64,000 nucleotides of DNA from Octopus vulgaris (taxonomy: Eukaryota): positions 88,226,001-88,290,000 of the forward strand of contig OX597817.1 in the NCBI GenBank assembly GCA_951406725.2. The letters run 5' to 3'. Below, one piece after another: positions 655-57,061 of this stretch. Positions within the stretch are counted from its first letter, which is position 1, and each line of letters opens with the position of its first letter. The notes under the pieces were generated by a model, which was not told the DNA's origin, searched no databases, and saw nothing but the letters and a program-made list of their open reading frames with translations. The translations under genes and the position numbers were made by a program.

Positions 655-714
655 TCAACCAACAGAATGCAAAATGTCTCTTTTCGAAGAGGCTTTTTGC
701 ATTCTGTTGGCTGA
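655..714. repeat. Isolated ~60-nt near-perfect hairpin
   Basis: CCAACAGAATGCAAAA (659-674) pairs with TTTTGCATTCTGTTGG (695-710); inner GTCTCTT-TTCG-AAGAGGC. Confidence 0.8.
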
Positions 715-3200: not shown

Positions 3201-3205
<5 letters not shown>

Positions 3206-3468
3206 TACTATTAATAAATGTCTGGTGTGTGTTGCGTACCGTTACAAATAAACGAAAAAATGCATTGTAAATAAACAAGACATTTAAAAGCCGTATACGT
3301 ATAAGACACAGAGGGTCCTTAATTCTTCATCAGTTATCAACCAGAATGGTAATGCGAAACTGAGTATTACCATTCTGGTTGATAACTGATGAAGAATTAG
3401 GGCCTCTCTGTGTCTTATAGGTATACGATTTTTTATCTGTCATTGTTTATTTACAATGCATTTTTTCA
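3201..3468. mobile_element. Non-coding fold-back element in (TA)n, probably PLE-derived
   Basis: Inverted arms ~3254-3355 / 3364-3467; left arm ~50 bp longer; (TA)n on both sides; each arm has CTGATGAAG but no downstream GAAA. Confidence 0.6.
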
Positions 3469-11136: not shown

Positions 11137-11342
11137 AAATAATGGTCATTGCATATTTTTCTTCATTGTAGGAAGTTTGACTTACAGCTGTTTCGAGTCA
11201 TCATTATAGGTTCGGCCCATTGATCGGTTGAGAACAATTGAACACCGATTGAGTAAAGCTCTCAATAACGAGCCTATGACTACTGGAAATAGCTGTAATT
11301 CAAATTTATTAAATAAAGAAAAATATGTAATAACCATTATTT
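11137..11342. mobile_element. Diverged fold-back element with minimal HHR-like motif
   Basis: Imperfect inverted arms; minus strand reads ATGATGA-CTC-GAAA-CAGCT-GTA (11183-11204) with palindromic stem III; degenerate copy GAAATAGCTGTA in the right arm. Confidence 0.6.
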
Positions 11343-14540: not shown

Positions 14541-14544
14541 TATA

Positions 14545-14950
14545 GGTACAAGAGTGGCTTGTGATAAGTAGCTTGCTTACCAACCGCATGTTTCCGGGTT
14601 CAGTCCCACTGCGTGGCACCTTGGGCAAGTGTCTTCTACTATAGCCTCGGGCCGACCAAAGCTTTGTGAGTAGATTTGGTAGACGGAAACTGAAAGAAGC
14701 CCGTCGTATATATGTGCATATATGTATGCGTGTGTATATGTTTGTGTGTCTGTGTTTGTCCCCCAACATCGCTTCACAACCGATGGTGGTGTGTTTACGT
14801 CTCCGTAACTTAGCGGTTCTGCAAAAGGGACCCATAGAGTAAGTACTAGGTTTACAAAGAATAAGTCCTGGGGTCGTCTTGCTCGATTAAAGGCGGTGCT
14901 CCAGCATGGCCGAAATCAAATGACTGAAACAAGTAAAGGAGTAAAGGAGT
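14545..14950 (+). mobile_element. SINE family B (tRNA head, CORE-like TTGGGCAAGT)
   Basis: GGTTCAGTCCCACTGCGTGGCACCTTGGGCAAGTG..GGCGGTGCTCCAGCATGGCC..GACTGAAAC tail. Confidence 0.9.
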
Positions 14951-15035
14951 ATATATATTGTGAGTGTTTATATATATATATACTTGTAAATGCATGTAAA
15001 TTCGCATTTGTATGTGTGTGTGTATATATATGTAT

Positions 15036-15237
15036 ACTCTTTTACTCTTTTACTTGTCTCAGTCATTTGACTGCGGCCATGCTGGAGCACCGCCTTTAGT
15101 CGATCAAATCGACCCCGGAACTTAGTCTTTGTAAGTCTAGTACTTATTCTATCGGTCTCTTTTGCCGAACCGCTAAGTGACGGAGACGTAAACACACCAG
15201 CATCGGTTGTCAAGCAATGCTAGGGGGGGACAAACAC

Positions 15238-15305
<68 letters not shown>

Positions 15306-15467
15306 CGACAGGCTTCTTTCAGTTTCCGTCTACCAAATCCACTCACAGGCATTGGTCGGCCCGGGGCTATAGCAGAAGACACTTGCCCAAGATGCCACGC
15401 AGTGGGACTGAACCCGCAACCATGTGGTTGGTTAGCAAGCTACTTACCACACAGCCACTCCTGCGCC
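15036..15467 (-). mobile_element. SINE family B
   Basis: Full-length reverse-complement copy, closely matching 29532-29945. Confidence 0.9.
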
Positions 15468-15604
15468 TATGTATGTATATTTTTATATGCATATTTGTAT
15501 ATGCAAACATCGGATCAGTTTAAGCAAATCATCTGTGAAGGAGGTTCAATCAGAAATTGCAGAATGCTCATCTGTCGCCTACGACAGGAGAATCCGTGCT
15601 TATT

Positions 15605-19006: not shown

Positions 19007-19049
<43 letters not shown>

Positions 19050-19050
<1 letters not shown>

Positions 19051-19462
19051 CAAAATAAAGTAGTAAGGTACCGTACGAGTGGAAATATATATGAAGAAAG
19101 GTTTGGAAATGCGATTTCAGAAATGTTTATTCACTTGACCGGTTTTACTTTTTTATAAAAAGATTGTCAAAAGTAAAATATAAAAGCTTTGTATGAGCTT
19201 TGTTGTGTTAAGTACTGGTTATCACAAAAGTATTAAAAGGCGCAAATACATTCTTTCTCAAGTGCTTTCTTGAAGACTGTTTTTAACATTTTCTTATTAT
19301 CAAAGAATGTGTTTCTGTTTTTTTAATACTTTTGTGATAACTAGTACTTAACACAACAAAGCTCATACAAAGCTTTATATTTTACTTTTGACAATCTTTT
19401 TCTAAAAAAGTGAAACCGGTCAAGTGAGTAAACATCTCTAAAATTGCATTTTCAAACCTTCT

Positions 19463-19466
<4 letters not shown>
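19050..19466. mobile_element. Non-coding fold-back element in (TA)n, probably PLE-derived
   Basis: ~165-bp inverted arms (~19091-19256 / 19302-19466); right arm carries GAAACCGGTC, the 3' half of a PLE-type minimal HHR; (TA)n on both sides. Confidence 0.7.
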
Positions 19467-19523
<57 letters not shown>

Positions 19524-19974
19524 AAATTGTAGAGATGGAAAATTGAACATACGGGAAACTTTATTGCTTACAACGATCATTTCGACCCATCCTACATCGA
19601 TCCTTCGCGAGTGCGATTCTGTACATAGGCAGTGAGTGGATTTGGTAAACGGAAACTGAAAGAAATACATTATGTATATATATATATCAAGTCGCTCTTC
19701 AGTGCTACTGGTAACATGTAATCCAGTACAACTTGTTGCGTGAGGAGGGTGATTGTTGGACACCCTGCAGGCTAAAACGTAACCCCATCGGAGGGTGGAG
19801 GAACTCATGAGCAGTCAACGGCCATCCAACCAATATGTGTAAATATGTATAAACTTTTTTTTATATATTCTTATATGTGTATATATATATATGTATATTT
19901 TTACTTTTATATATATTATCTATATTTAAATCTTATTTTATTTATATCTTTAAATTACATATCTTTTACTTTAT

Positions 19975-20300
19975 ATCTATATATATATTACTGATAATGT
20001 GTGTGGGTCTGTGTGTCTGTATGTATGTATGTGTATGTATGTATGTATGTATGTATGTATGTATGTATGTTTCTGTGAATCACTAAAACACGAGAACTTC
20101 CCAAACGATTTCAAATTTTACACATGCTTACTTAGGGTCCATGCAGTGTCATGGGACAAAAAAATTTTCAACTTCTTGCCTAATGCGAATCCGGAGGAAT
20201 CTCTTATTTCTTACACTATTTCAGTATTGTGTCAAAAGTGAAACAATAACATCTCTATTGTAATGTGAGGTACTTTCAATATCAATACTAAAACTGTTAT
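19975..20300 (+). mobile_element. Possible Helitron-like 5' portion
   Basis: TCTATATATATAT start followed by (TGTA)n, similar in layout to the 5' end at 10150. Confidence 0.35.
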
Positions 20301-20321
20301 CTCACATACATATATACATAC

Positions 20322-20368
<47 letters not shown>

Positions 20369-20409
20369 TAAATAAATAAATGGAGTTGAACGAAAATGTT
20401 AACAAAATT

Positions 20410-20502
20410 CCTTTACTCTCGACATATATTTCGAAGACAACATGGTTTTATTCCAAAGGAATAAACGATGCAAGATGCAATCTTCTCATCAGGAAAGAAA
20501 GG
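20410..20502 (-). ncRNA. Type I hammerhead ribozyme
   Basis: CCTTTCTTTC-CTGATGA-GAAGA..TCTTC-GAAA-TATAT-GTC-GAGAGTAAAGG: intact core, stems I-III can form, GUC cleavage triplet. Confidence 0.8.
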
Positions 20503-20860
20503 GAGCCTCTCTCATCAACAAGACAAAACAATAATTGCGATGACTGCCTACATGGTAAACAAAACGATAATAAGTGTTTTAAAAAAACCGTTAGTAGAAT
20601 TGACGTCAAAGTTAGATAGTAGGAAGAGAAGGATTAAAGGAAAGGGTTAAAGGAATATTCCTTTAACCCTTCTCTTCCTATTATCTAACTTTGACGTCAA
20701 TTCTACTAACGGTTTTTTTTAACACTTATTATCGTTTTGTTTACCATGTAGGCAGTCATCGCAATTATTGTTTTGTCTTGTTTAAACACTTATTATCGTT
20801 TTGTTTACCATGTAGGCAGTCATCGCAATTATTGCTTTGTCTTGTTGTTGAGAGAGGCTC

Positions 20861-20953
20861 CCTTTCTTTCCTGATGGGAAGATTGCATCTTGCATCGTTT
20901 ATTCCTTTGGAATAAAACCATGTTGTCTTCGAAACATATGTCGAAAGTAAAGG
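20861..20953 (+). ncRNA. Type I hammerhead ribozyme (A9G variant)
   Basis: CCTTTCTTTC-CTGATGG-GAAGA..TCTTC-GAAA-CATAT-GTC-GAAAGTAAAGG. Confidence 0.7.
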
Positions 20954-21147
20954 AATTTTGTTAACATCTTCGTTCAACTCCATTTATTTATTTATTCATA
21001 TATAACACACAAATTTCTGTACATGAACCCGGAGTTTCTACCCTTGGACAGGTCGCTTCAACCCTGTTTCTGACGTGAATTTGCTACTCCGGTATCGGTT
21101 CATCGAATTTTCCATGTTGACGGTAAACATAGGATAATTCATTCACC

Positions 21148-21188
<41 letters not shown>

Positions 21189-21365
21189 GCATATATGTGC
21201 ATATACATCTGCACATATGTATATGTATATATATGTATATTTATAGATGCATATGTATACATGTATTTGTATATATGCATGTATATATATGCATATACGT
21301 GTGTGTATATACATATATGTATGTATAAATATATGTATTCATGCATATATGTGTAAATATATATC

Positions 21366-21401
<36 letters not shown>

Positions 21402-21411
21402 CTTATGTATA

Positions 21412-21487
<76 letters not shown>

Positions 21488-21863
21488 TATATATTTAGGT
21501 ATATATTATATGTATATATATATATATATACTTATGTATAAGAGATACAGGGAAGAAGTTCAACTCAGGCAGACTACGATTGGGATATACATATATGGAT
21601 TTAATATGATAGAGTTGTCTAAAACATAAATTCATTTGAAATATAGAGATACAGAGATATAAAAATATATGAATGTTAAAAATATGCAATAACAAATAAA
21701 TACATAGATATATAACCATAATAGAGTATAGATAAAAATATATATAAGAATAACAAAATATAGAAAGACATTTCTTATAAAAATTCAGAATAAATTATGG
21801 AATGGAGGGAGTAATAGATGTTTAAAAAGAGTTTTTGGTACCATATTTCAAGGAAATGACGTA

Positions 21864-21949
21864 TTCCAACGATCGTTTCTAGAGTTCATTCAAAGAATAT
21901 ATGTGAATCTTACGATTCATTTCCCAGGAATGCCCCCATCATCAAGGAA
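21864..21949 (-). ncRNA. HHR-like motif (C3U variant)
   Basis: TTCC-TTGATGA-TGGGG..CTCTA-GAAA-CGATC-GTT-GGAA: stems I, II and palindromic stem III present. Confidence 0.55.
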
Positions 21950-22176
21950 AAGAAAAGAATAACGTTTGCGCTAGAAATGCATTAAACTGTTTTGCAAGTA
22001 TTACTTAATTTATGTTTTCTATAAGAGTCATATGACTTATGGAAATTATTAAGAGGGTTGATATATTATATCTATATATTTTATCTATATATTTATCTAT
22101 ATATCTAAAGAAAATTTATAATTATATTTATGTACATATATATATATATATATACATGTGTGTGTGTATGATTCTA

Positions 22177-22207
<31 letters not shown>

Positions 22208-22272
22208 GTACATATATATATATATACATGTGTGTGTGTATGATTCTATATATATATGTACATATATATATA

Positions 22273-22307
<35 letters not shown>

Positions 22308-22455
22308 GTATAAAGAGATGTATTTATAGATGTATACGTATAAATGTCTATGTATATATGTATATATATATAGATGAATATTTAAATAGATGCATATGTA
22401 TATATATATAGATGTATATTTAAATACATGTATATGTATATAAGTATATATATAG

Positions 22456-22494
<39 letters not shown>

Positions 22495-22583
22495 TGTGTG
22501 TATATATGTATATATATGTATATGTGTGTGTGTATGTGTATATATTGTGTGTGTATATATATATATGTATATGTATATATGTA

Positions 22584-22650
<67 letters not shown>

Positions 22651-22945
22651 GTATATATATATATATGTATATATACATACATATGTATATATATATATTT
22701 GAGTGGTTGAATGAATTATCTTGTTATGGATAATTCGGTTAACCGATACCTGGGTAGCAAATTCACATCAGAGAAGACACGTTTGAAGTTACGTGCTTTC
22801 GTGTGGAAATTTGTATGTTTTTTTTTTTAAATATACTGAATTAGATGCTAATGTCTTTTCAACTACCATAAAAGTCTCCGAGACAATAACAAGCTTTTTT
22901 ATGTAGATAAAATGAAAAATGATGAATTCACACGACTTCGGTTAA

Positions 22946-22995
22946 TCACAGACGCGTTTCGAACTTAAAGTAAATTATATTTACCTATTGCTCTC
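22946..22995 (-). ncRNA. HHR-like motif (U4C variant)
   Basis: ACA-CCGAGGA-GAGC..GTTC-GAAA-CGC-GTC-TGT; GAAACGCGTC is typical of PLE minimal HHRs. Confidence 0.55.
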
Positions 22996-23059
22996 CTCGG
23001 TGTTATACTCTGAATTATTAATTTGCGAGCATTAGGGTTAAATATGTACGCAATCAATA

Positions 23060-23111
<52 letters not shown>

Positions 23112-23228
23112 GTTATATTTCGGAATGGTCATATTGCCAGTTTAGCCAATAAAAACACACGCACTATATATTTGGTGTTATTTTGCTTCAGTGATATTTA
23201 TTTTTTACATTAATCTTAATCTTATTTC

Positions 23229-23273
23229 GGCCAAAGTTCTTTCGTCACACTCCTGTGACCGCATCAGTGGTCC
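23229..23273 (-). ncRNA. Non-canonical HHR-like motif in PLE 3' region (left arm)
   Basis: GGACCA-CTGATG-CG-GTCACA-GGAG-TGTGAC-GAAA-GAAC-TT-TGGCC. Confidence 0.5.
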
Positions 23274-23603
23274 TTTGTTTTCTTCTCACTTACTTGTGTC
23301 TCTCCTTACTAACCGTCAGCCATTTTGTATTTCTATTGTATGTCTTCATTTGCGCATGCTTATATCTCTATGTGCGTCTATGTTTATTTAGTGTGTGTGT
23401 GAGGGGGATGCCTGTAATATTTGTATCTTCTGGTTATATACATTCTTGTAATTTGTATTTTGTTTTTGTTGTTGTTGCTTTTGTTCTAATTTTGTTCATG
23501 TGTTTACATCCACCCATTATTATCATTACATACGCTTGTATGTATGTATAACAACAATATTAGTAATAATATTAGTAATAATAATAATAAATCTAATTGA
23601 AAA

Positions 23604-23644
<41 letters not shown>

Positions 23645-23828
23645 CATATAAATACATACATATAGATATATATACATATATACACATATATATACATATA
23701 CATATACATATATATACACATATACACACACATATACACACATACATACACATATACATATATATAGTTATTCATTTCTATTTCTTTAATTATCTGTGTA
23801 TTTATTATGTTTGCAGGATCCACTATCG

Positions 23829-24440
23829 TCATATGTTGTGGTGTGCGCTATTGCTCCATTCTAGTTTTCTATTCAGGCTAGGTTTATTTTCTATTATATG
23901 TGTAGCTTCTGTAATTTGTCTAATTGTTGCATCTGTTCTATGTGTGGACAATATCTTAATCTCTATGTTATTGATTGATCCCCCGTGTTCTTGTTCAGCG
24001 TGTTGGTACAGAATCGATGAGCTTTTACCTTCCTTGAGTTGTCTCCAATGTTCATTCACCCGCTCACCAATGCTTCTTGCTGTTTCCCCTACGTATGTTA
24101 CTGTCTTGTTACTGCATCGTCCCTCTATACATCTTATACTATAGACCACATTTCTGGCTTTACAGTTTGTTTGTGGGCTAAATCTACATACAGTGCAATA
24201 GTTATCCGTACAGAGAGTTCTACTAAAAGGATAGCTTCTACCAATTATAGATCTGATAGGGTTGCCTGGCTTTTCAACAACCTTAATTCTTAGTTTAAGT
24301 TTATCTAGGGTCCTTCTAAAGCGGTACGCCAGTTCACCTCCAGGGGTGGTGTCAACGAACATGACACTCTGGTATTTATGGCTATCATACCAAGAGTTGG
24401 CCTTCCCTATTTTCTTTTTGTCCTTTCTATAGTGTTCCAT
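23829..24440 (-). CDS. PLE linker, Cys-rich motif and GIY-YIG endonuclease (left copy)
   Basis: [48 protein letters not shown]. Confidence 0.9.
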
Positions 24441-25702
24441 GACTTGTTCCTATAGAGTGGGCAAATCCCATTCCTATCATTACATAATATATTATCAAAT
24501 TTCTTCATGGCTCCTTTGTATACTCTGACCCTTTCTTTATGGCTGTAACCTGAGAACTGCATGCGGTGAATGAAATACTGTATGTGTCTCTTTAATTCTG
24601 TAGGCTCGCACATGCGTGACACATTTCTCATTATTCTGACGAGGTCTGCCATCAAAATATTGAACTTGGCATTGCCCGCAATGGCTGAGTTCCGGTGGAT
24701 CAGGTATTTTGAGGCCATAGGTTTTGCATAGTATGAATGAAGGATTTGGGTTTTATTTTTCACAATTTCTAGCCAGAGTTCAGTGTCTAGTACTGGTAGT
24801 CTATGGTTGGGGTGTTTAGTGGGGTAGTCTATTGTGACCTTAATACTCTGGTGGATGGAGTTAGCTATTTGCTGGATGCTCTCCATAGTATTAGTTTCTA
24901 TTACTATATCAACATTACTCTCTTGTGGGGGTGCCTTTACTACTATATTGATATCATCAACATAGCGAGAGTACATGTTTACGAGTATGGATTTCTGCAG
25001 TAGGCATTCTTTAAGCCTTCTGTCCCACCATACCATGAAGAGGTTGGCCACATCACCAGCGATACTAACACCGATGGCTGCCCCCTCGTCCTGGGCATAT
25101 ATTTTATTATTAAATTTAAATGTGTGGCCTTTTAGGGTAACTCTTATACTAGCTCCTAGTGCATGTGCGATCATTTTCTTTACCTGATGGACATTTGCGG
25201 GGCTCCGTATGGCTCTGGTCCATCCGCGCCATCTTTCTATATGTGTCTTCCTAGCCATAGAAGTAATTGTAGGCGGTCTACCTCTTAAACATCTACTGGG
25301 GCAGAAACTACTAAGATTATGTTTATCTAAGTATTCACTATTATATGTCAGTCTAAGTAGGAGGCCCAGTTCTTCTGTGTCGACATTACAGAACTCCACC
25401 TGGCTCTCGTTGATCATCTCCACGCACTTCTCCACTGCAAAATCTACGTCAATCGATGGGTATAGGGATACCACATCCATGCTACCTACTATACATCCTG
25501 TCAAGTCACAAGTTTTGTTACAGTCACTGATCCTGCTTAGGAGATCTTCTGTGCTGTCACACACATCAGGTGACATCCTGATTATAGGGCGTATGATCAT
25601 TGAGAGGAAGTAGGAGATTCTGTAATTGCTAGCGATATTCGCTCCACAGACTGGTCTTGTTGGTGGTCCTGCTATAGGGTCAGTAAAACCTTTATGGTCC
25701 TT
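24407..25702 (-). CDS. PLE reverse transcriptase (left copy, 5'-truncated)
   Basis: Frame stays open upstream of the tracked ATG: KDHK..PPTRPV; then SMDVVSLYPSI, QDEGAAIG, YSRYVDD, LPVLDT, YYAKPMAS. Confidence 0.93.
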   Translation of the reverse strand, partial: KDHKGFTDPIAGPPTRPVCGANIASNYRISYFLSMIIRPIIRMSPDVCDSTEDLLSRISDCNKTCDLTGCIVGSMDVVSLYPSIDVDFAVEKCVEMINESQVEFCNVDTEELGLLLRLTYNSEYLDKHNLSSFCPSRCLRGRPPTITSMARKTHIERWRGWTRAIRSPANVHQVKKMIAHALGASIRVTLKGHTFKFNNKIYAQDEGAAIGVSIAGDVANLFMVWWDRRLKECLLQKSILVNMYSRYVDDINIVVKAPPQESNVDIVIETNTMESIQQIANSIHQSIKVTIDYPTKHPNHRLPVLDTELWLEIVKNKTQILHSYYAKPMASKYLIHRNSAIAGNAKFNILMADLVRIMRNVSRMCEPTELKRHIQYFIHRMQFSGYSHKERVRVYKGAMKKFDNILCNDRNGICPLYRNKSWNTIERTKRK

Positions 25703-26593
25703 AGTAGATGTTTAAGAGGTAGACCGCCTACAATTACTTCTATGGCTAGGAAGACACATATAGAAAGATGGCGCGGATGGACCAGAGCCATACGGAGCCC
25801 CGCAAATGTCCATCAGGTAAAGAAAATGATCGCACATGCACTAGGAGCTAGTATAAGAGTTACCCTAAAAGGCCACACATTTAAATTTAATAATAAAATA
25901 TATGCCCAGGACGAGGGGGCAGCCATCGGTGTTAGTATCGCTGGTGATGTGGCCAACCTCTTCATGGTATGGTGGGACAGAAGGCTTAAAGAATGCCTAC
26001 TGCAGAAATCCATACTCGTAAACATGTACTCTCGCTATGTTGATGATATCAATATAGTAGTAAAGGCACCCCCACAAGAGAGTAATGTTGATATAGTAAT
26101 AGAAACTAATACTATGGAGAGCATCCAGCAAATAGCTAACTCCATCCACCAGAGTATTAAGGTCACAATAGACTACCCCACTAAACACCCCAACCATAGA
26201 CTACCAGTACTAGACACTGAACTCTGGCTAGAAATTGTGAAAAATAAAACCCAAATCCTTCATTCATACTATGCAAAACCTATGGCCTCAAAATACCTGA
26301 TCCACCGGAACTCAGCCATTGCGGGCAATGCCAAGTTCAATATTTTGATGGCAGACCTCGTCAGAATAATGAGAAATGTGTCACGCATGTGCGAGCCTAC
26401 AGAATTAAAGAGACACATACAGTATTTCATTCACCGCATGCAGTTCTCAGGTTACAGCCATAAAGAAAGGGTCAGAGTATACAAAGGAGCCATGAAGAAA
26501 TTTGATAATATATTATGTAATGATAGGAATGGGATTTGCCCACTCTATAGGAACAAGTCATGGAACACTATAGAAAGGACAAAAAGAAAATAG
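25703..26593 (+). CDS. PLE reverse transcriptase (right copy, more truncated)
   Basis: Protein identical to the left copy from SRCLRG onward; the tracked N-terminal MVL is junction-derived. Confidence 0.9.
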   Translation, partial: SRCLRGRPPTITSMARKTHIERWRGWTRAIRSPANVHQVKKMIAHALGASIRVTLKGHTFKFNNKIYAQDEGAAIGVSIAGDVANLFMVWWDRRLKECLLQKSILVNMYSRYVDDINIVVKAPPQESNVDIVIETNTMESIQQIANSIHQSIKVTIDYPTKHPNHRLPVLDTELWLEIVKNKTQILHSYYAKPMASKYLIHRNSAIAGNAKFNILMADLVRIMRNVSRMCEPTELKRHIQYFIHRMQFSGYSHKERVRVYKGAMKKFDNILCNDRNGICPLYRNKSWNTIERTKRK

Positions 26594-27171
26594 GGAAGGC
26601 CAACTCTTGGTATGATAGCCATAAATACCAGAGTGTCATGTTCGTTGACACCACCCCTGGAGGTGAACTGGCGTACCGCTTTAGAAGGACCCTAGATAAA
26701 CTTAAACTAAGAATTAAGGTTGTTGAAAAGCCAGGCAACCCTATCAGATCTATAATTGGTAGAAGCTATCCTTTTAGTAGAACTCTCTGTACGGATAACT
26801 ATTGCACTGTATGTAGATTTAGCCCACAAACAAACTGTAAAGCCAGAAATGTGGTCTATAGTATAAGATGTATAGAGGGACGATGCAGTAACAAGACAGT
26901 AACATACGTAGGGGAAACAGCAAGAAGCATTGGTGAGCGGGTGAATGAACATTGGAGACAACTCAAGGAAGGTAAAAGCTCATCGATTCTGTACCAACAC
27001 GCTGAACAAGAACACGGGGGATCAATCAATAACATAGAGATTAAGATATTGTCCACACATAGAACAGATGCAACAATTAGACAAATTACAGAAGCTACAC
27101 ATATAATAGAAAATAAACCTAGCCTGAATAGAAAACTAGAATGGAGCAATAGCGCACACCACAACATATGA
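26560..27171 (+). CDS. PLE linker, Cys-rich motif and GIY-YIG endonuclease (right copy)
   Basis: Identical 203-aa translation to 23829-24440. Confidence 0.9.
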   Translation: MEHYRKDKKKIGKANSWYDSHKYQSVMFVDTTPGGELAYRFRRTLDKLKLRIKVVEKPGNPIRSIIGRSYPFSRTLCTDNYCTVCRFSPQTNCKARNVVYSIRCIEGRCSNKTVTYVGETARSIGERVNEHWRQLKEGKSSSILYQHAEQEHGGSINNIEIKILSTHRTDATIRQITEATHIIENKPSLNRKLEWSNSAHHNI

Positions 27172-27345
27172 CGATAGTGGATCCTGCAAACATAATAAAT
27201 ACACAGATAATTAAAGAAATAGAAATGAATAACTATATATATGTATATGTGTATGTATGTGTGTATATGTGTGTGTATATGTATATATATGTATATGTAT
27301 ATGTATATATATGTGTATATATGTATATATATCTATGTATGTATG

Positions 27346-27392
<47 letters not shown>

Positions 27393-27718
27393 CAATTAGA
27401 TTTATTATTATTATTACTAATATTATTACTAATATTGTTGTTATACATACATACAAGCATATGTAATGATAATAATGGGTGGATGTAAACACATGAACAA
27501 AATTAGAACAAAAGCAACAACAACAAAAACAAAATACAAATTACAAGAATGTATATAACCAGAAGATACAAATATTACAGGCATCCCCTTCACACACACA
27601 CTAAATAAACATAGACGCACATAGAGATATAAGCATGCGCAAATGAAGACATACAATAGAAATACAAAATGGCTGACGGTTAGTAAGGAGAGACACAAGT
27701 AAGTGAGAAGAAAACAAA

Positions 27719-27763
27719 GGACCACTGATGCGGTCACAAGAGTGTGACGAAAGAACTTTGGCC
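27719..27763 (+). ncRNA. Non-canonical HHR-like motif in PLE 3' region (right arm)
   Basis: GGACCA-CTGATG-CG-GTCACA-AGAG-TGTGAC-GAAA-GAAC-TT-TGGCC. Confidence 0.5.
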
Positions 27764-27938
27764 GAAATAAGATTAAGATTAATGTAAAAAATAAATATCA
27801 CTGAAGCAAAATAACACCAAATATATAGTGCGTGTGTTTTTATTGGCTAAACTGGCAATATGACCATTCCGAAATATAACAATATCTGTTTCAACACACG
27901 ACTTCACATAAAAAATCTTGCACAACAAATATTTAAAC

Positions 27939-28005
<67 letters not shown>

Positions 28006-28129
28006 CATATATATATATTTATATATATAGCAATAAGAAAATGGAGGGGATCAATAGGTGGTTCATCAACTTTTAGACATTATATTATGTTAACTTATTT
28101 ATTTATTTACTAAACTTACAATTACAACC

Positions 28130-30476: not shown

Positions 30477-30494
30477 CATATGGAGAGAGAGAGA

Positions 30495-30653
30495 GAATTT
30501 AGAGACAAACAACCGGTGTTTAGTTAATCCATTGATTTGTCATGAGATTTTTAGAATAATAATTATAAGATATTTAATTAATTTCTATGTGGTTATTATA
30601 GTTAATATCTTTTCACTATTGATGGATTAATTAAATAGCGGTTTGTCTCTAAA

Positions 30654-30658
<5 letters not shown>
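30495..30658. mobile_element. MITE-like element between (GA)n and (TG)n
   Basis: Terminal inverted repeats AGAATTTAGAGACAAAC / GTTTGTCTCTAAATTCT extending imperfectly to TTAATCCAT / ATGGATTAA. Confidence 0.65.

Positions 30659-34714: not shown

Positions 34715-34718
<4 letters not shown>
33230..34718 (+). mobile_element. CR1/L2-group LINE, 5'-truncated RT, one frameshift at ~34197
   Basis: [62 protein letters not shown]; (ATCA)n tail; (TA)n on both sides. Confidence 0.93.
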
Positions 34719-34789
<71 letters not shown>

Positions 34790-34791
<2 letters not shown>

Positions 34792-35553
34792 TATATGAGT
34801 ACAAGACGTCGCAAAATGTAAACAACATGAAATACGAAGGAAAATTTAGGTATGCGAACAACGAGAGAAACAAATGGAAAACAAGACAAGTAACACTATT
34901 TACATTTGACGGATATTTGTCCTCATCTTGTTTATTGTTAACACAACGTTTCGGCTGCTATACACTCCAGCCTTCATCAGGTGTCTTGGGGAAATTTCGA
35001 ACCTGGGTTCTCATTCCTAAGACGTCCAAGTGCTGTTAGATCATGTGAACTCAATAAAGCCATCCATACAGTTCACAATGGAAAAAGAAAAAGACAATCA
35101 GTTAGCGTTCCTGGACGCATTAATAACACGTACCAAGTATGGAATCAGGACATCCGTATACCGCAAGCCGACTTCAACTCCCACCATCCATACAGTGTAA
35201 AGAGAGGGATGGCTCAGTGCCTAAAACATCGAGCAATGAATATAAGTAGAGATCGTGATACCCACCACGAAGAAATGATCAAGCTCAGCAACAATCTGTT
35301 AAGCAACAACTACCCCAAAAGCATACTCTCCACTCAAATTATGAAGAAAAGAGAGGGCGAAACCAATAAGCTGTCCACAGTCTGTCTACCCTATGTGAAA
35401 GGCCTCTCCAAAAAGATACAAAAGATATGTGGCCCATATGACATTGGGACAGTATTCAAGAGTAATACAACACTTCGCAAATATTTCCTTCGAGTAAAAC
35501 CACCAATAGAAGAGAATATGACCAAGAACTGAGTGTACTCCATCCCATGCAAC
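34790..35553. mobile_element. Penelope/Poseidon-type PLE fragment with inverted 3' repeat
   Basis: Plus-strand FNSHHPYSVKRG..NNYP..LPYVKGLS..N*VYSIPC; minus-strand HHR-bearing segment upstream. Confidence 0.8.
34940..34986 (-). ncRNA. PLE-type minimal hammerhead ribozyme
   Basis: GACAC-CTGATGA-A-GGCTG..CAGCC-GAAA-C-GTT-GTGTT; loopless ACGT stem III (dimer-type). Confidence 0.75.
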
Positions 35554-37221: not shown

Positions 37222-37266
37222 CTGTTACTGATGAGGCGTAGCTACGCAGAAACACGTGTCATACAG
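37222..37266 (+). ncRNA. HHR-like motif (degenerate)
   Basis: CTGTTA-CTGATGA-GGCGTA-GC-TACGCA-GAAA-CACGT-GTC-ATACAG; core intact, mismatches at the bases of stems I and II. Confidence 0.55.
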
Positions 37267-56099: not shown

Positions 56100-56473
56100 C
56101 TAGCAGTATCGCCCGGCGTTGCTCAGGTTTGTAAGGGAAATAACTATAAAGCATTTTTAGAGAGTTATAGCAAAAAAATGGGGAAAAAATGATGGTAAAT
56201 TTTTTTTTGAGAGTTAAAAAAGGTGGAGTTGCGTCCCCTAGACGGTCTGTGGTTTGGGTTTCTGATTCTCGACCCCATGTCGAATTTATCGATTTTTTTC
56301 AGAACTGGGGGAACTTTTCAAAATTTTCGCTGCGTTAGTTTTGAATTATGACATTGGGCTATGTGTGTGTCAAGTTTCATCAGAATCGGTTGAAAGCCGT
56401 GGTCAGAGTGAGGGTACGAGAAAACAGACACACAGAAAACGCACAGACAAACTGCCGTTTATATAGAGAGAGA
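56100..56473 (-). mobile_element. Non-autonomous Helitron
   Basis: 3' ~110 bp (hairpin plus CTAG) shared with 10150-10785; 5' TC start; different interior. Confidence 0.8.
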
Positions 56474-57061
56474 TATGTATATACACACGTTTATACATAA
56501 ACGCGTGTATATACATATCTCTCTCTATATAAACGTGTGTGTGTGTCTATATATCATCTTTTATCTCTCTTTTGAGATCGTGGTTGCACAAATATTGATG
56601 GATAAACTATTACCAGACTGAAATGTGGGGGGTCATTATAACTAACTGAAAGCCCTTGAAGGCTATGTCCCAGTATAACTGTAGTCCACTAGATGCAACA
56701 AGTAAACAAAGTAAAATAGCTGGATATATTGATTTAGTTACTAAACTCATACGAACCTCATCAAACATTTTGAGCGGGGAAACGAATTTAGGACGTTTCA
56801 TCATATACTTATTGAAAGATATGTTAAAATGGTTTTGTAAAGAAATTGTATGATTATGTACAGGTAAACTGAATTCTGTGACAGCATAAATGGAATAGAG
56901 TATGAAACCATAAATTTATCATACATAAACTACGTTATACGAGTAACATATTTCAACTTCTTTCAGATTAACTATATAGTTAGTTGTTTATATTTTTGTC
57001 AAAAAATTTATGATAGACAATGTAAAACTTGTATTTTTGGCCATGATATTTTGTTGTCGTA

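What the first reader, a model, noticed from the sequence alone, without database searches (positions are those of the whole stretch)
19050..27939. (TA)n-targeted system: coding Penelope palindrome plus non-coding, hammerhead-bearing fold-back elements with the same architecture
Seen: four elements (3201-3468, 19050-19466, 20362-21150, 23107-27939) are inverted duplications flanked by (TA)n, with one arm longer and the shorter arm ending at an internal ATAT-like point that merges into the microsatellite. Whole or partial HHR motifs point outward. Further HHR or half-HHR motifs lie at ~19572-19586(-), 21864-21949(-) and 22946-22995(-). Established: PLEs carry HHRs, form inverted insertions, and some clades favour microsatellites. 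Inference: both ends of a break in (TA)n prime reverse transcription, one of them internally by microhomology, and short ribozyme-bearing non-autonomous RNAs use this machinery, creating a nested insertion hotspot.
Basis: partly seen in the sequence, partly recalled or inferred. Interest (0 to 1): 0.8.

Follow-up and report, generated by a model that had tools for sequence, protein, structure and literature searches.

The report
Mirror-image Penelope insertions in TA repeats
Four mirror-image DNA stretches wedged into TA repeats of a probable octopus genome are likely cut-short copies of Penelope-type jumping genes, a largely published pattern, with the twist that in three of the four the shorter copy ends on a short AT run that may help start the copying.

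Summary
The four fold-backs are real. Arms are 90-99% identical, all 8 outer ends abut (TA)n, a 31-146 nt extension lies on one side only, and flanks are not mirrored. The large one is a 5'-truncated, heads-in pair of a Penelope-like element (RT plus C-terminal GIY-YIG). Hammerheads are clear in 20366-21150, variant or decayed in the coding element and 19050-19465, and only a half core in 3202-3467. Inverted truncated copies, one-sided tails, (TA)n targeting, nicking and extension of both strands from two internal RT start sites, and non-autonomous HHR-bearing PLE derivatives are all published. Non-autonomy is not shown: in public contigs the 20366-21150 family continues upstream past the palindrome centre, so the short elements may be truncated 3' UTRs. 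Two features were not found in the papers searched. First, the inner end falls on a 4-8 nt AT run in 3 of 4 elements, and this end recurs in the family, whereas the one PLE tested in vitro starts at a non-homologous site. Second, the RT has a C-terminal endonuclease yet about 131 aa between RT3 and RT4, against about 60 in canonical PLEs.

The parts
23107..25702 (-). Left arm of the coding PLE plus 405-nt central spacer (25298-25702); 5'-truncated RT (24407-25702), EN frame (23829-24449), 3' UTR; ends in (TA)n without the tail
25703..27885 (+). Right arm of the coding PLE, more deeply 5'-truncated; RT to 26593, CX4CxxC linker and GIY-YIG 26551-27171; same frameshift as the left arm
27886..27939 (+). 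54-nt one-sided tail; with the pLTR end it reads as an ATG-initiated open frame of 26 codons (27860-27937), possibly the ORF start of the next tandem unit (homology not shown)
27719..27763 (+). Variant minimal type I HHR-like motif (CTGATGC core, 6-bp stem II, non-palindromic stem III); mirror copy at about 23229-23273(-)
20366..20657 (-). E3 left (short) arm with a type I HHR with perfect core (CTGATGA at 20492, predicted cut at 20421); ends at the AT run into (TA)n 20323-20365
20656..21004 (+). E3 right arm; HHR 20866-20947 with a G at 20877 where about 100% of family depth has A; 64-nt tandem duplication 20717-20846; the arms overlap by a 2-nt TA at the centre
21005..21150 (+). 146-nt one-sided tail of E3, contiguous with the HHR region in other family copies; its last 110 nt or so are homologous to the 3' end of the element at 22699-23058(-)
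   Evidence: (records 4, 6, 20)
19050..19465 (.). E2 fold-back, arms about 19081-19260 and 19303-19465, tail on the left; decayed HHR-like motif 19381-19430(+) (7-bp stem I, TTGACAA, GAAACCGGTC)
3202..3467 (.). E1 fold-back, arms 3248-3355 and 3368-3467, 12-nt spacer, tail on the left; CTGATGA in both arms (3333-, 3386+), no GAAA half
19521..19631 (-). Single-armed fragment abutting (TA)n, with only the 3' half of an HHR (19572-19586); its other end meets a SINE fragment at 19632-19687
21545..22030 (-). Single-armed AT-rich fragment between TA-rich arrays with an HHR at 21864-21949 (TTGATGA core, palindromic CGATCG stem III)
22699..23058 (-). Single-armed element with an HHR at about 22945-23006 (CCGAGGA core, GAAACGCGTC) and the 3' terminal motif shared with E3
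19008..28029 (.). (TA)n target arrays between the insertions; 16 of the window's 40 TA runs of 16 nt or more lie in this 9 kb

Best explanation
The four fold-backs are heads-in, tails-out duplications inside (TA)n; the large one encodes a 5'-truncated Penelope-like RT and GIY-YIG nuclease, and the three short ones are likely the same kind of insertion from other PLE families, truncated within the 3' UTR. Likely mechanism (inferred): a PLE protein-RNA complex nicks both strands of a (TA)n array. Each 3' end primes reverse transcription on the same or a sibling RNA, one at the outer start site (the tail end) and one at the inner start site, which here tends to be an AT run that could pair with the primer. 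Both cDNAs stop early and are joined head to head with little or no overlap. Each insertion leaves (TA)n on both sides, which would keep the locus a target. The hammerhead probably marks the pLTR and is probably not needed for insertion.
For: Shown here: RT and GIY-YIG Pfam hits. The modelled 99%-identical Octopus vulgaris relative P0001 has telomerase RT as its top fold match. Both PLE arms share 7 amino-acid differences from P0001 and a frameshift that P0001 lacks, so they had one source. Both E3 arms share the minority allele at 6 of 10 positions where the family majority differs, including 20895 where 99-100% of depth differs. E3 is a repeated family (2586, 2174, 1488 and 194 contigs laid in 4 runs). 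Family copies end at 21004 followed by (TA)n with mixed sequence beyond (35 contigs in X1, 21 in X4). The family continues upstream of the centre with a shared sequence (15 contigs in X2, 4 in X10, one record of 1064 nt). Three contigs show strand-switch joints at three other positions. TGACGTCA occurs only in E3 in the window and is enriched in 3' UTRs of coding relatives (8 in 7157 nt of UTR versus 1 in 33531 nt of ORF; 4 of 15 loci). Relatives carry type I HHRs downstream of the EN (L004, L011) or inverted upstream of the ORF (L021, L026). Published: PMC8557442, PMC11167929, PMC3846280.
Against: No coding sequence was linked to E1-E3; the upstream sequence of the 1064-nt contig could not be read. 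Depth over E3 falls roughly tenfold upstream of 20846, which a short non-autonomous family would also give. The E3 tail (146 nt) is far longer than the published 30-40 bp. E1 has no AT run at the inner end and only half an HHR. TGACGTCA is absent from 11 of 15 relative UTRs and from the window's own coding PLE. None of the 41 closest metagenome loci showed a (TA)n array (short contigs). The reads seemed cut at 21135-21164, so the outer end of the E3 family was not tested. No empty site or spanning read was seen.
Confidence: 0.68

Rival explanations
1. E3 (and perhaps E1, E2 and the single-armed elements) belong to dedicated non-coding families mobilised in trans by a TA-targeting PLE through a conserved 3' terminal signal.
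For: Summed depth is highest over the HHR and tail and drops upstream of 20846. E3 and 22699-23058 differ in their HHRs but share about 110 nt of 3' end (z=27), and the E3 family majority at 21088 and 21090 matches the other element. A profile search with the two tail peptides found no PLE protein (1 hit, a repetitive ORF; a weak search). Precedents: MRC1 (PMC8557442) and retrozymes (bioRxiv 2026.07.22.740005).
Against: The family extends upstream of the centre. The captured lengths fit inside a normal 3' UTR. No sequence is shared with the coding element's 3' end, so it is not the demonstrated partner. A depth drop is also expected from 5' truncation and subfamily divergence (loose ends at 20838 resemble the window's own upstream sequence).
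Confidence: 0.2
2. Both arms were first equal in length; the short arm lost its tail afterwards by deletion or slippage between the internal AT run and the flanking (TA)n, so the microhomology is a repair scar and not a priming site.
For: The palindromes have rearranged since insertion (13-nt and 64-nt duplications in E3). AT runs next to (TA)n are natural deletion endpoints and would recur across a family.
Against: One-sided tails are general in PLEs and map to RT start sites in vitro (PMC11167929). The 99.4%-identical young PLE already lacks the tail on one side. All four elements keep exactly one tail.
Confidence: 0.1
3. The short fold-backs are MITE or Foldback DNA transposons with TA target duplications that happen to contain HHR-like motifs.
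For: Non-coding, long inverted repeats, TA on both sides; a TA target-site duplication cannot be excluded inside (TA)n.
Against: Ends are asymmetric in 4 of 4. The E3 family continues past the centre and shows strand switches at other positions. The family HHR core is intact. A related element occurs single-armed.
Confidence: 0.04
4. Assembly fold-back artefacts.
For: The PLE arms show no difference over about 1,580 nt next to the centre; no read spanning a whole palindrome was seen.
Against: Flanks are not mirrored. Tails are one-sided. E1-E3 arms differ by 3-10%. The PLE arms differ by 3 substitutions in unique sequence plus microsatellite length changes.
Confidence: 0.03

Closest known systems
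Canonical C-terminal EN+ PLEs with a CX2-5CxxC linker (Neptune, Nematis) and Hydra (PMC8557442)
   Same: RT then Zn-finger linker then GIY-YIG with CCHH; HHR-like motif near the 3' end; inverted 5'-truncated copy; one-sided tail; (TA)n targets (stated there for Naiad and Hydra, microsatellite bias for Neptune).
   Different: RT3-RT4 interval of 131 aa (129-151 in the 57 of 62 homologs where both motifs were found) versus about 60-63 counted by hand in Fig. S1; TDKS in place of DKG in relatives; tails up to 146 nt; both arms are truncated copies with no full-length unit.
Poseidon PAc of Anolis, in vitro (PMC11167929)
   Same: Both strands cut and extended; two internal RT start sites define the tail; AT-rich targets; HHR dispensable.
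   Different: PAc starts at a site not homologous to the cut DNA; here the inner end lies on an AT run matching the target in 3 of 4 elements.
Adineta vaga Pen2a and related (PMC3846280)
   Same: Inverted pLTRs, an optional 31-bp tail on one of them, pLTR and tail covering the ORF start, microhomology joints, palindromes.
   Different: Those copies have discernible TSDs and are in the Penelope/Poseidon group; here the target is (TA)n and TSDs cannot be read.
Non-LTR retrozymes and non-autonomous Chlamys such as MRC1 (bioRxiv 2026.07.22.740005; PMC7761336; PMC8557442)
   Same: Non-coding sequences related to PLE pLTRs; retrozymes carry type I HHRs.
   Different: Those are head-to-tail tandems; these are heads-in inverted pairs or single arms, and a defined non-coding full-length unit was not shown.
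EN-deficient Athena and Coprina (as summarised in PMC8557442)
   Same: Short template repeats complementary to the target, beside an HHR, assist attachment.
   Different: They use telomeric overhangs and lack the endonuclease.

Membership tests
EN+ Penelope-like element (coding element) | Telomerase-related RT | tested here: met
   PF00078 E=4.6e-4, below the curated cut-off; model of P0001 has TERT as top fold matches
EN+ Penelope-like element (coding element) | GIY-YIG endonuclease with CCHH motif | tested here: met
   PF01541 E=8.8e-4, below the curated cut-off; conserved C, C, H, H, R, E, N columns
EN+ Penelope-like element (coding element) | Inverted 5'-truncated copy and one-sided tail | tested here: met
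   tail 54 nt, longer than the usual 30-40
EN+ Penelope-like element (coding element) | Canonical type I HHR in the pLTR | tested here: inconclusive
   Variant core and stem III; perfect cores in relatives L004, L011, L021
EN+ Penelope-like element (coding element) | Target-site duplication | not testable with these tools
   Both flanks are (TA)n; no empty site available
Neptune/Nematis | C-terminal EN with CX2-5CxxC linker | tested here: met
   CTDNYCTVC before GIY-YIG
Neptune/Nematis | Short RT3-RT4 region (no IFD) and DKG motif | tested here: not met
   131 aa and TDKS versus about 60-63 aa in PMC8557442 Fig. S1 (counted by hand)
Neptune/Nematis | RT phylogeny with reference sequences | not tested
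   No reference PLE proteins were available as tool sequences
Naiad/Chlamys | N-terminal endonuclease | tested here: not met
   No N-terminal YIG motif in the 58 of 62 homologs where RT3 was located; EN is C-terminal
PLE 3' end (E3) | Intact type I HHR in the family, sense toward the outer end | tested here: met
PLE 3' end (E1, E2) | Type I HHR | tested here: inconclusive
   E2 decayed, E1 half core
Non-autonomous PLE | Full-length unit with a defined 5' end and no ORF | tested here: inconclusive
   Family extends upstream of the centre; upstream sequence unread
Non-LTR retrozyme | Head-to-tail tandem units each with an HHR | tested here: not met
   No such tandem; only this window was examined
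MITE/Foldback | Matching termini and a fixed internal structure | tested here: not met
   Asymmetric ends; family continues past the centre

The most novel reading that the evidence does not exclude
Octopus carries an undescribed PLE lineage (C-terminal GIY-YIG plus a telomerase-length insertion in the RT fingers) that anneals nicked (TA)n to an AT island inside its RNA, telomerase-style, to set one of two start sites, and PLE machinery spreads a set of short non-coding hammerhead RNAs recognised through a conserved 3' terminal element of about 100 nt, writing palindromes into microsatellites genome-wide.
Probability: 0.15. Interest if true: 0.68.

Novelty: new variant of a known kind. Interest (0 to 1): 0.4.

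Why it matters
PMC8557442 names the formation of inverted structures and microsatellite bias as open questions of PLE transposition, and the one in vitro system (PMC11167929) found a start site unrelated to the target. Families whose inner end sits on an AT run matching a (TA)n target offer a direct test of whether primer-template pairing sets the start site in microsatellite-targeting PLEs. The long RT3-RT4 insertion in a C-terminal-EN element would, if confirmed by phylogeny, add a clade and bear on the PLE-telomerase link. The overall architecture is already in print, which limits the surprise.

Tried and rejected
Rfam scan: no hammerhead family among the 150 of 160 rows shown, nearly all low-complexity miRNA matches below gathering score; uninformative. 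No whole genome is held, so the genome-wide scan and empty-site search were not run. Sequencing runs: no RNA holder listed on record; best share 0.44, so no run holds this exact locus in full; X10 is only guessed to be RNA and is not used as evidence of expression. No piece spans the stretch, and that table is cut (6460 pieces and 411 loose-end rows not shown). Pattern search for the E3 HHR in metagenome contigs: 0 hits. Viral contigs: 43 pattern matches, none confirmed. Earlier-findings look-ups returned nothing. BLASTN of six window elements against 80 loci: no hit. ORF-start homology of the tails: best score 27, matched or exceeded by 8 of 820 control windows, so not shown; MAFFT did not place the peptide at the N-terminus. 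Tail-peptide profile search: one hit, a repetitive ORF, rejected. Naiad was my first guess from recalled RT motifs and was rejected because the EN is C-terminal. The SINE pair 14542-15470 was considered as a fifth member and rejected: the right arm is closer to a copy at 29.5 kb (95%) than to the left arm (89%) and its ends are 165-345 nt from TA runs. A simple single-cDNA fold-back was considered for the coding element and judged unlikely, since the arm with the central spacer is not the arm with the tail. PDB sequence search gave only weak bacterial RT matches.
Full report
Setting. The window is microsatellite-rich animal DNA; no whole genome is held for it. The RT of the large element is 99% identical to a protein that its source labels Octopus vulgaris (P0001), so the genome is probably that species or a close relative (inference).

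Observation. Self-comparison finds all four fold-backs. Arm identity is 90/98 (E1), 151/167 (E2), about 97% apart from two tandem duplications (E3) and 99.4% over 2191 columns (coding element). Each has extra sequence at one outer end only: about 51, 31-36, 146 and 54 nt. All 8 outer ends lie within 1 nt of a TA run of at least 16 nt; 0.4% of non-repeat positions lie within 3 nt of one. The 6 ends of three other inverted pairs that I tested lie 18-345 nt from such runs. Sixteen of the window's 40 TA runs lie in 19.0-28.0 kb. Outer flanks are not mirrored, which argues against fold-back artefacts, though no spanning read was seen.

Inner ends. Read in the long arm, the point where the short arm merges into (TA)n is an AT-alternating run of 8 nt (E2), 7 nt (E3) and 4 nt (coding element); such runs start at 0.3%, 0.5% and 2.6% of window positions. 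E1 has none.

Hammerheads. A strict type I descriptor gave one perfect hit (20492, minus strand) and three more with one core change (20871+, 21945-, and a weak one at 3333-); 2 of 8 shuffles gave one hit each. A relaxed descriptor gave 7 hits, 6 of them in 20.4-27.8 kb with scores 6-10, against about 0.11 per shuffle at such scores in 40 shuffles. E2 retains stem I and the GAAACCGGTC half but has two changes in the first core in both arms and was not called. E1 has only CTGATGA; 19572-19586 only a 3' half. All face a (TA)n-abutting end. The consensus labels (C3, G8, A9) are standard knowledge.

The coding element. Each arm holds a 5'-truncated RT, a CX4CxxC linker and a GIY-YIG domain (both Pfam scores are below the curated cut-offs), then a 3' UTR of about 690 nt with the variant HHR. 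The arms face outward from a 405-nt spacer that continues the left arm's ORF. Both share a frameshift absent from P0001 and the same 7 amino-acid differences from it, so both were copied from one already defective source (inference). The tail lies in an ATG-initiated open frame of 26 codons, as described for Pen2a_Av, but homology to relatives' N-termini was not significant. A model of P0001 (27 sequences, mean pLDDT 80.8) has telomerase RT as its best fold matches. Relatives from metagenome contigs carry perfect type I HHR cores after the EN (L004, L011) or inverted upstream of the ORF (L021; L026 with one change) (printed for the 41 closest of 80 loci and for more distant loci with an HHR hit; most had no HHR hit, and many contigs end early).

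The E3 family. Contigs of four public runs were laid on 20600-21164: 2586, 2174, 1488 and 194 contigs. About 100% of depth has A at 20877, so the family core is intact. Loose ends of (TA)n behind 21004, with mixed sequence beyond, occur in 35 contigs of X1 and 21 of X4, so the inner end recurs. Other contigs read through 21004 into the tail. Loose ends before 20656 share a pyrimidine-rich sequence in X2 (15 contigs) and X10 (4), and one 1064-nt record goes on for about 960 nt, so the family is longer than E3 and the palindrome centre is a truncation point. There the two arms begin at the same template base and overlap by TA. Three contigs show strand switches at three other positions. Summed depth is roughly tenfold lower upstream of 20846, which fits either 5' truncation with subfamily divergence or a short family; the tool warns that depth is no copy number. 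The outer end could not be tested because reads were cut at the repeat. At 6 of 10 positions where the family majority differs from the right arm, the left arm shares the minority base, so the arms come from one template. E3's last 110 nt or so match the 3' end of the single-armed element at 22699-23058 (z=27), and both stop within about 10 nt of the same motif. TGACGTCA occurs in the window only in E3 and is enriched in 3' UTRs of coding relatives (8 in 7157 nt versus 1 in 33531 nt of ORF; 4 of 15 loci; absent from the window's own coding element), a modest hint that E3 is a PLE 3' UTR.

Mechanism. Shown: geometry, shared template, recurrent inner end, AT runs, HHR motifs. Inferred, leaning on PMC11167929: both strands of (TA)n are nicked and each primes reverse transcription, one from the outer and one from the inner start site; both cDNAs stop early and are end-joined head to head. 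Inferred and untested: the AT run pairs with the primer to set the inner site. A later deletion between the AT run and the flank is the main alternative for that step. Ribozyme cleavage is probably not required.

Literature seen. PMC8557442: matched passages, sections 3 and 12, supplement parts 1, 53, 54 and a term search. It describes the inverted 5'-truncated copy, the 30-40 bp tail at one end, (TA)n targets, non-autonomous Chlamys, and the IFD as a feature of N-terminal-EN PLEs, TERTs and sporadic Coprina. PMC11167929: parts 1-2 of 4 (main text); supplements listed, not read, and they may bear on start-site sequence. PMC3846280: parts 1-3 of 5. bioRxiv 10.64898/2026.07.22.740005: parts 1-2 of 5; supplements closed. 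PMC7761336 and PMC13282606: passages, and a term search of the latter's supplement (PLEs 6.83% of the genome, 190 families; the word ribozyme is absent from its main text). Nine searches found no paper on octopus HHR fold-backs, on AT-run priming in EN+ PLEs, or on a C-terminal-EN clade with a long RT3-RT4 insertion. Subscription papers, Repbase and Dfam were not searchable, so absence from print is not established.

Side result. In 57 of 62 homologs where both motifs were found, RT3 to RT4 spans 129-151 aa (median 132; 131 in P0001), with TDKS in nearly all and a C-terminal EN. By hand count in Fig. S1 of PMC8557442 the span is about 60-63 aa in Penelope, Neptune and Nematis, about 84 in a Naiad, and about 118 in human TERT. 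The element therefore fails a diagnostic of each named clade; no phylogeny was run, and structural equivalence of the insertion to the TERT IFD was not tested.

Verdict. Real and mostly explained by known PLE biology; non-autonomy unproven; two variant features worth testing. Novelty: new variant of a known kind. Interest 0.4.

Noticed in passing
window 24407-25702(-); P0001-P0062: The RT has about 131 aa between RT3 and RT4 together with a C-terminal EN and a TDKS motif, shared by a broad set of relatives; this fits none of the clade diagnoses in PMC8557442.
   Followed up: partly
window 21040-21150(+) and 22700-22830(-): Two elements with different HHRs share a 3' terminal sequence of about 110 nt, a candidate RT-binding or start-site signal; both read as similar 36-aa stop-free peptides with no PLE protein match.
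   Followed up: partly
window 34789-35550: A near-canonical minimal HHR at 34980(-) next to (TA)n 34717-34788, back to back with an ORF fragment at 34942-35532(+) that resembles a Penelope/Poseidon-type RT thumb (resemblance recalled, not tested): probably another inverted PLE insertion.
   Followed up: no
window 11137-11342: An old fold-back (71% identity) with a GAAACAGCTGT half-motif at 11194(-) and weak similarity to the 34789-35050 fragment (z=6); possibly a fifth, decayed member.
   Followed up: partly
window 37228-37265(+) and 5098(+): A decayed minimal HHR (CTGATGA, palindromic stem II, GAAACACGTGTC) and an isolated GAAACGCGTC half.
   Followed up: no
window 14542-15470: Head-to-head pair of a SINE-like repeat; arms 89% identical, right arm 95% identical to a copy at 29.5 kb, so likely two independent insertions.
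   Followed up: yes
window 23107-25297 versus 25703-27885: No arm differences over about 1,580 nt next to the centre, while 3 substitutions lie in the outer 430 nt or so: chance, conversion near the centre, or two templates.
   Followed up: no
window 20900-20930; Family variants of the long stem II region of the E3 HHR carry a TTCG-capped hairpin where the window has TTTG, suggesting a conserved extra helix.
   Followed up: no
L002:3432, L038:1894: Relatives of the coding element also carry HHR-shaped motifs with two core changes (for example TTGAGAA), like E2's TTGACAA; degenerate cores may be common in this group.
   Followed up: partly
window 655-714, 30494-30657, 56456-56535: Further short inverted repeats without an HHR hit.
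   Followed up: no
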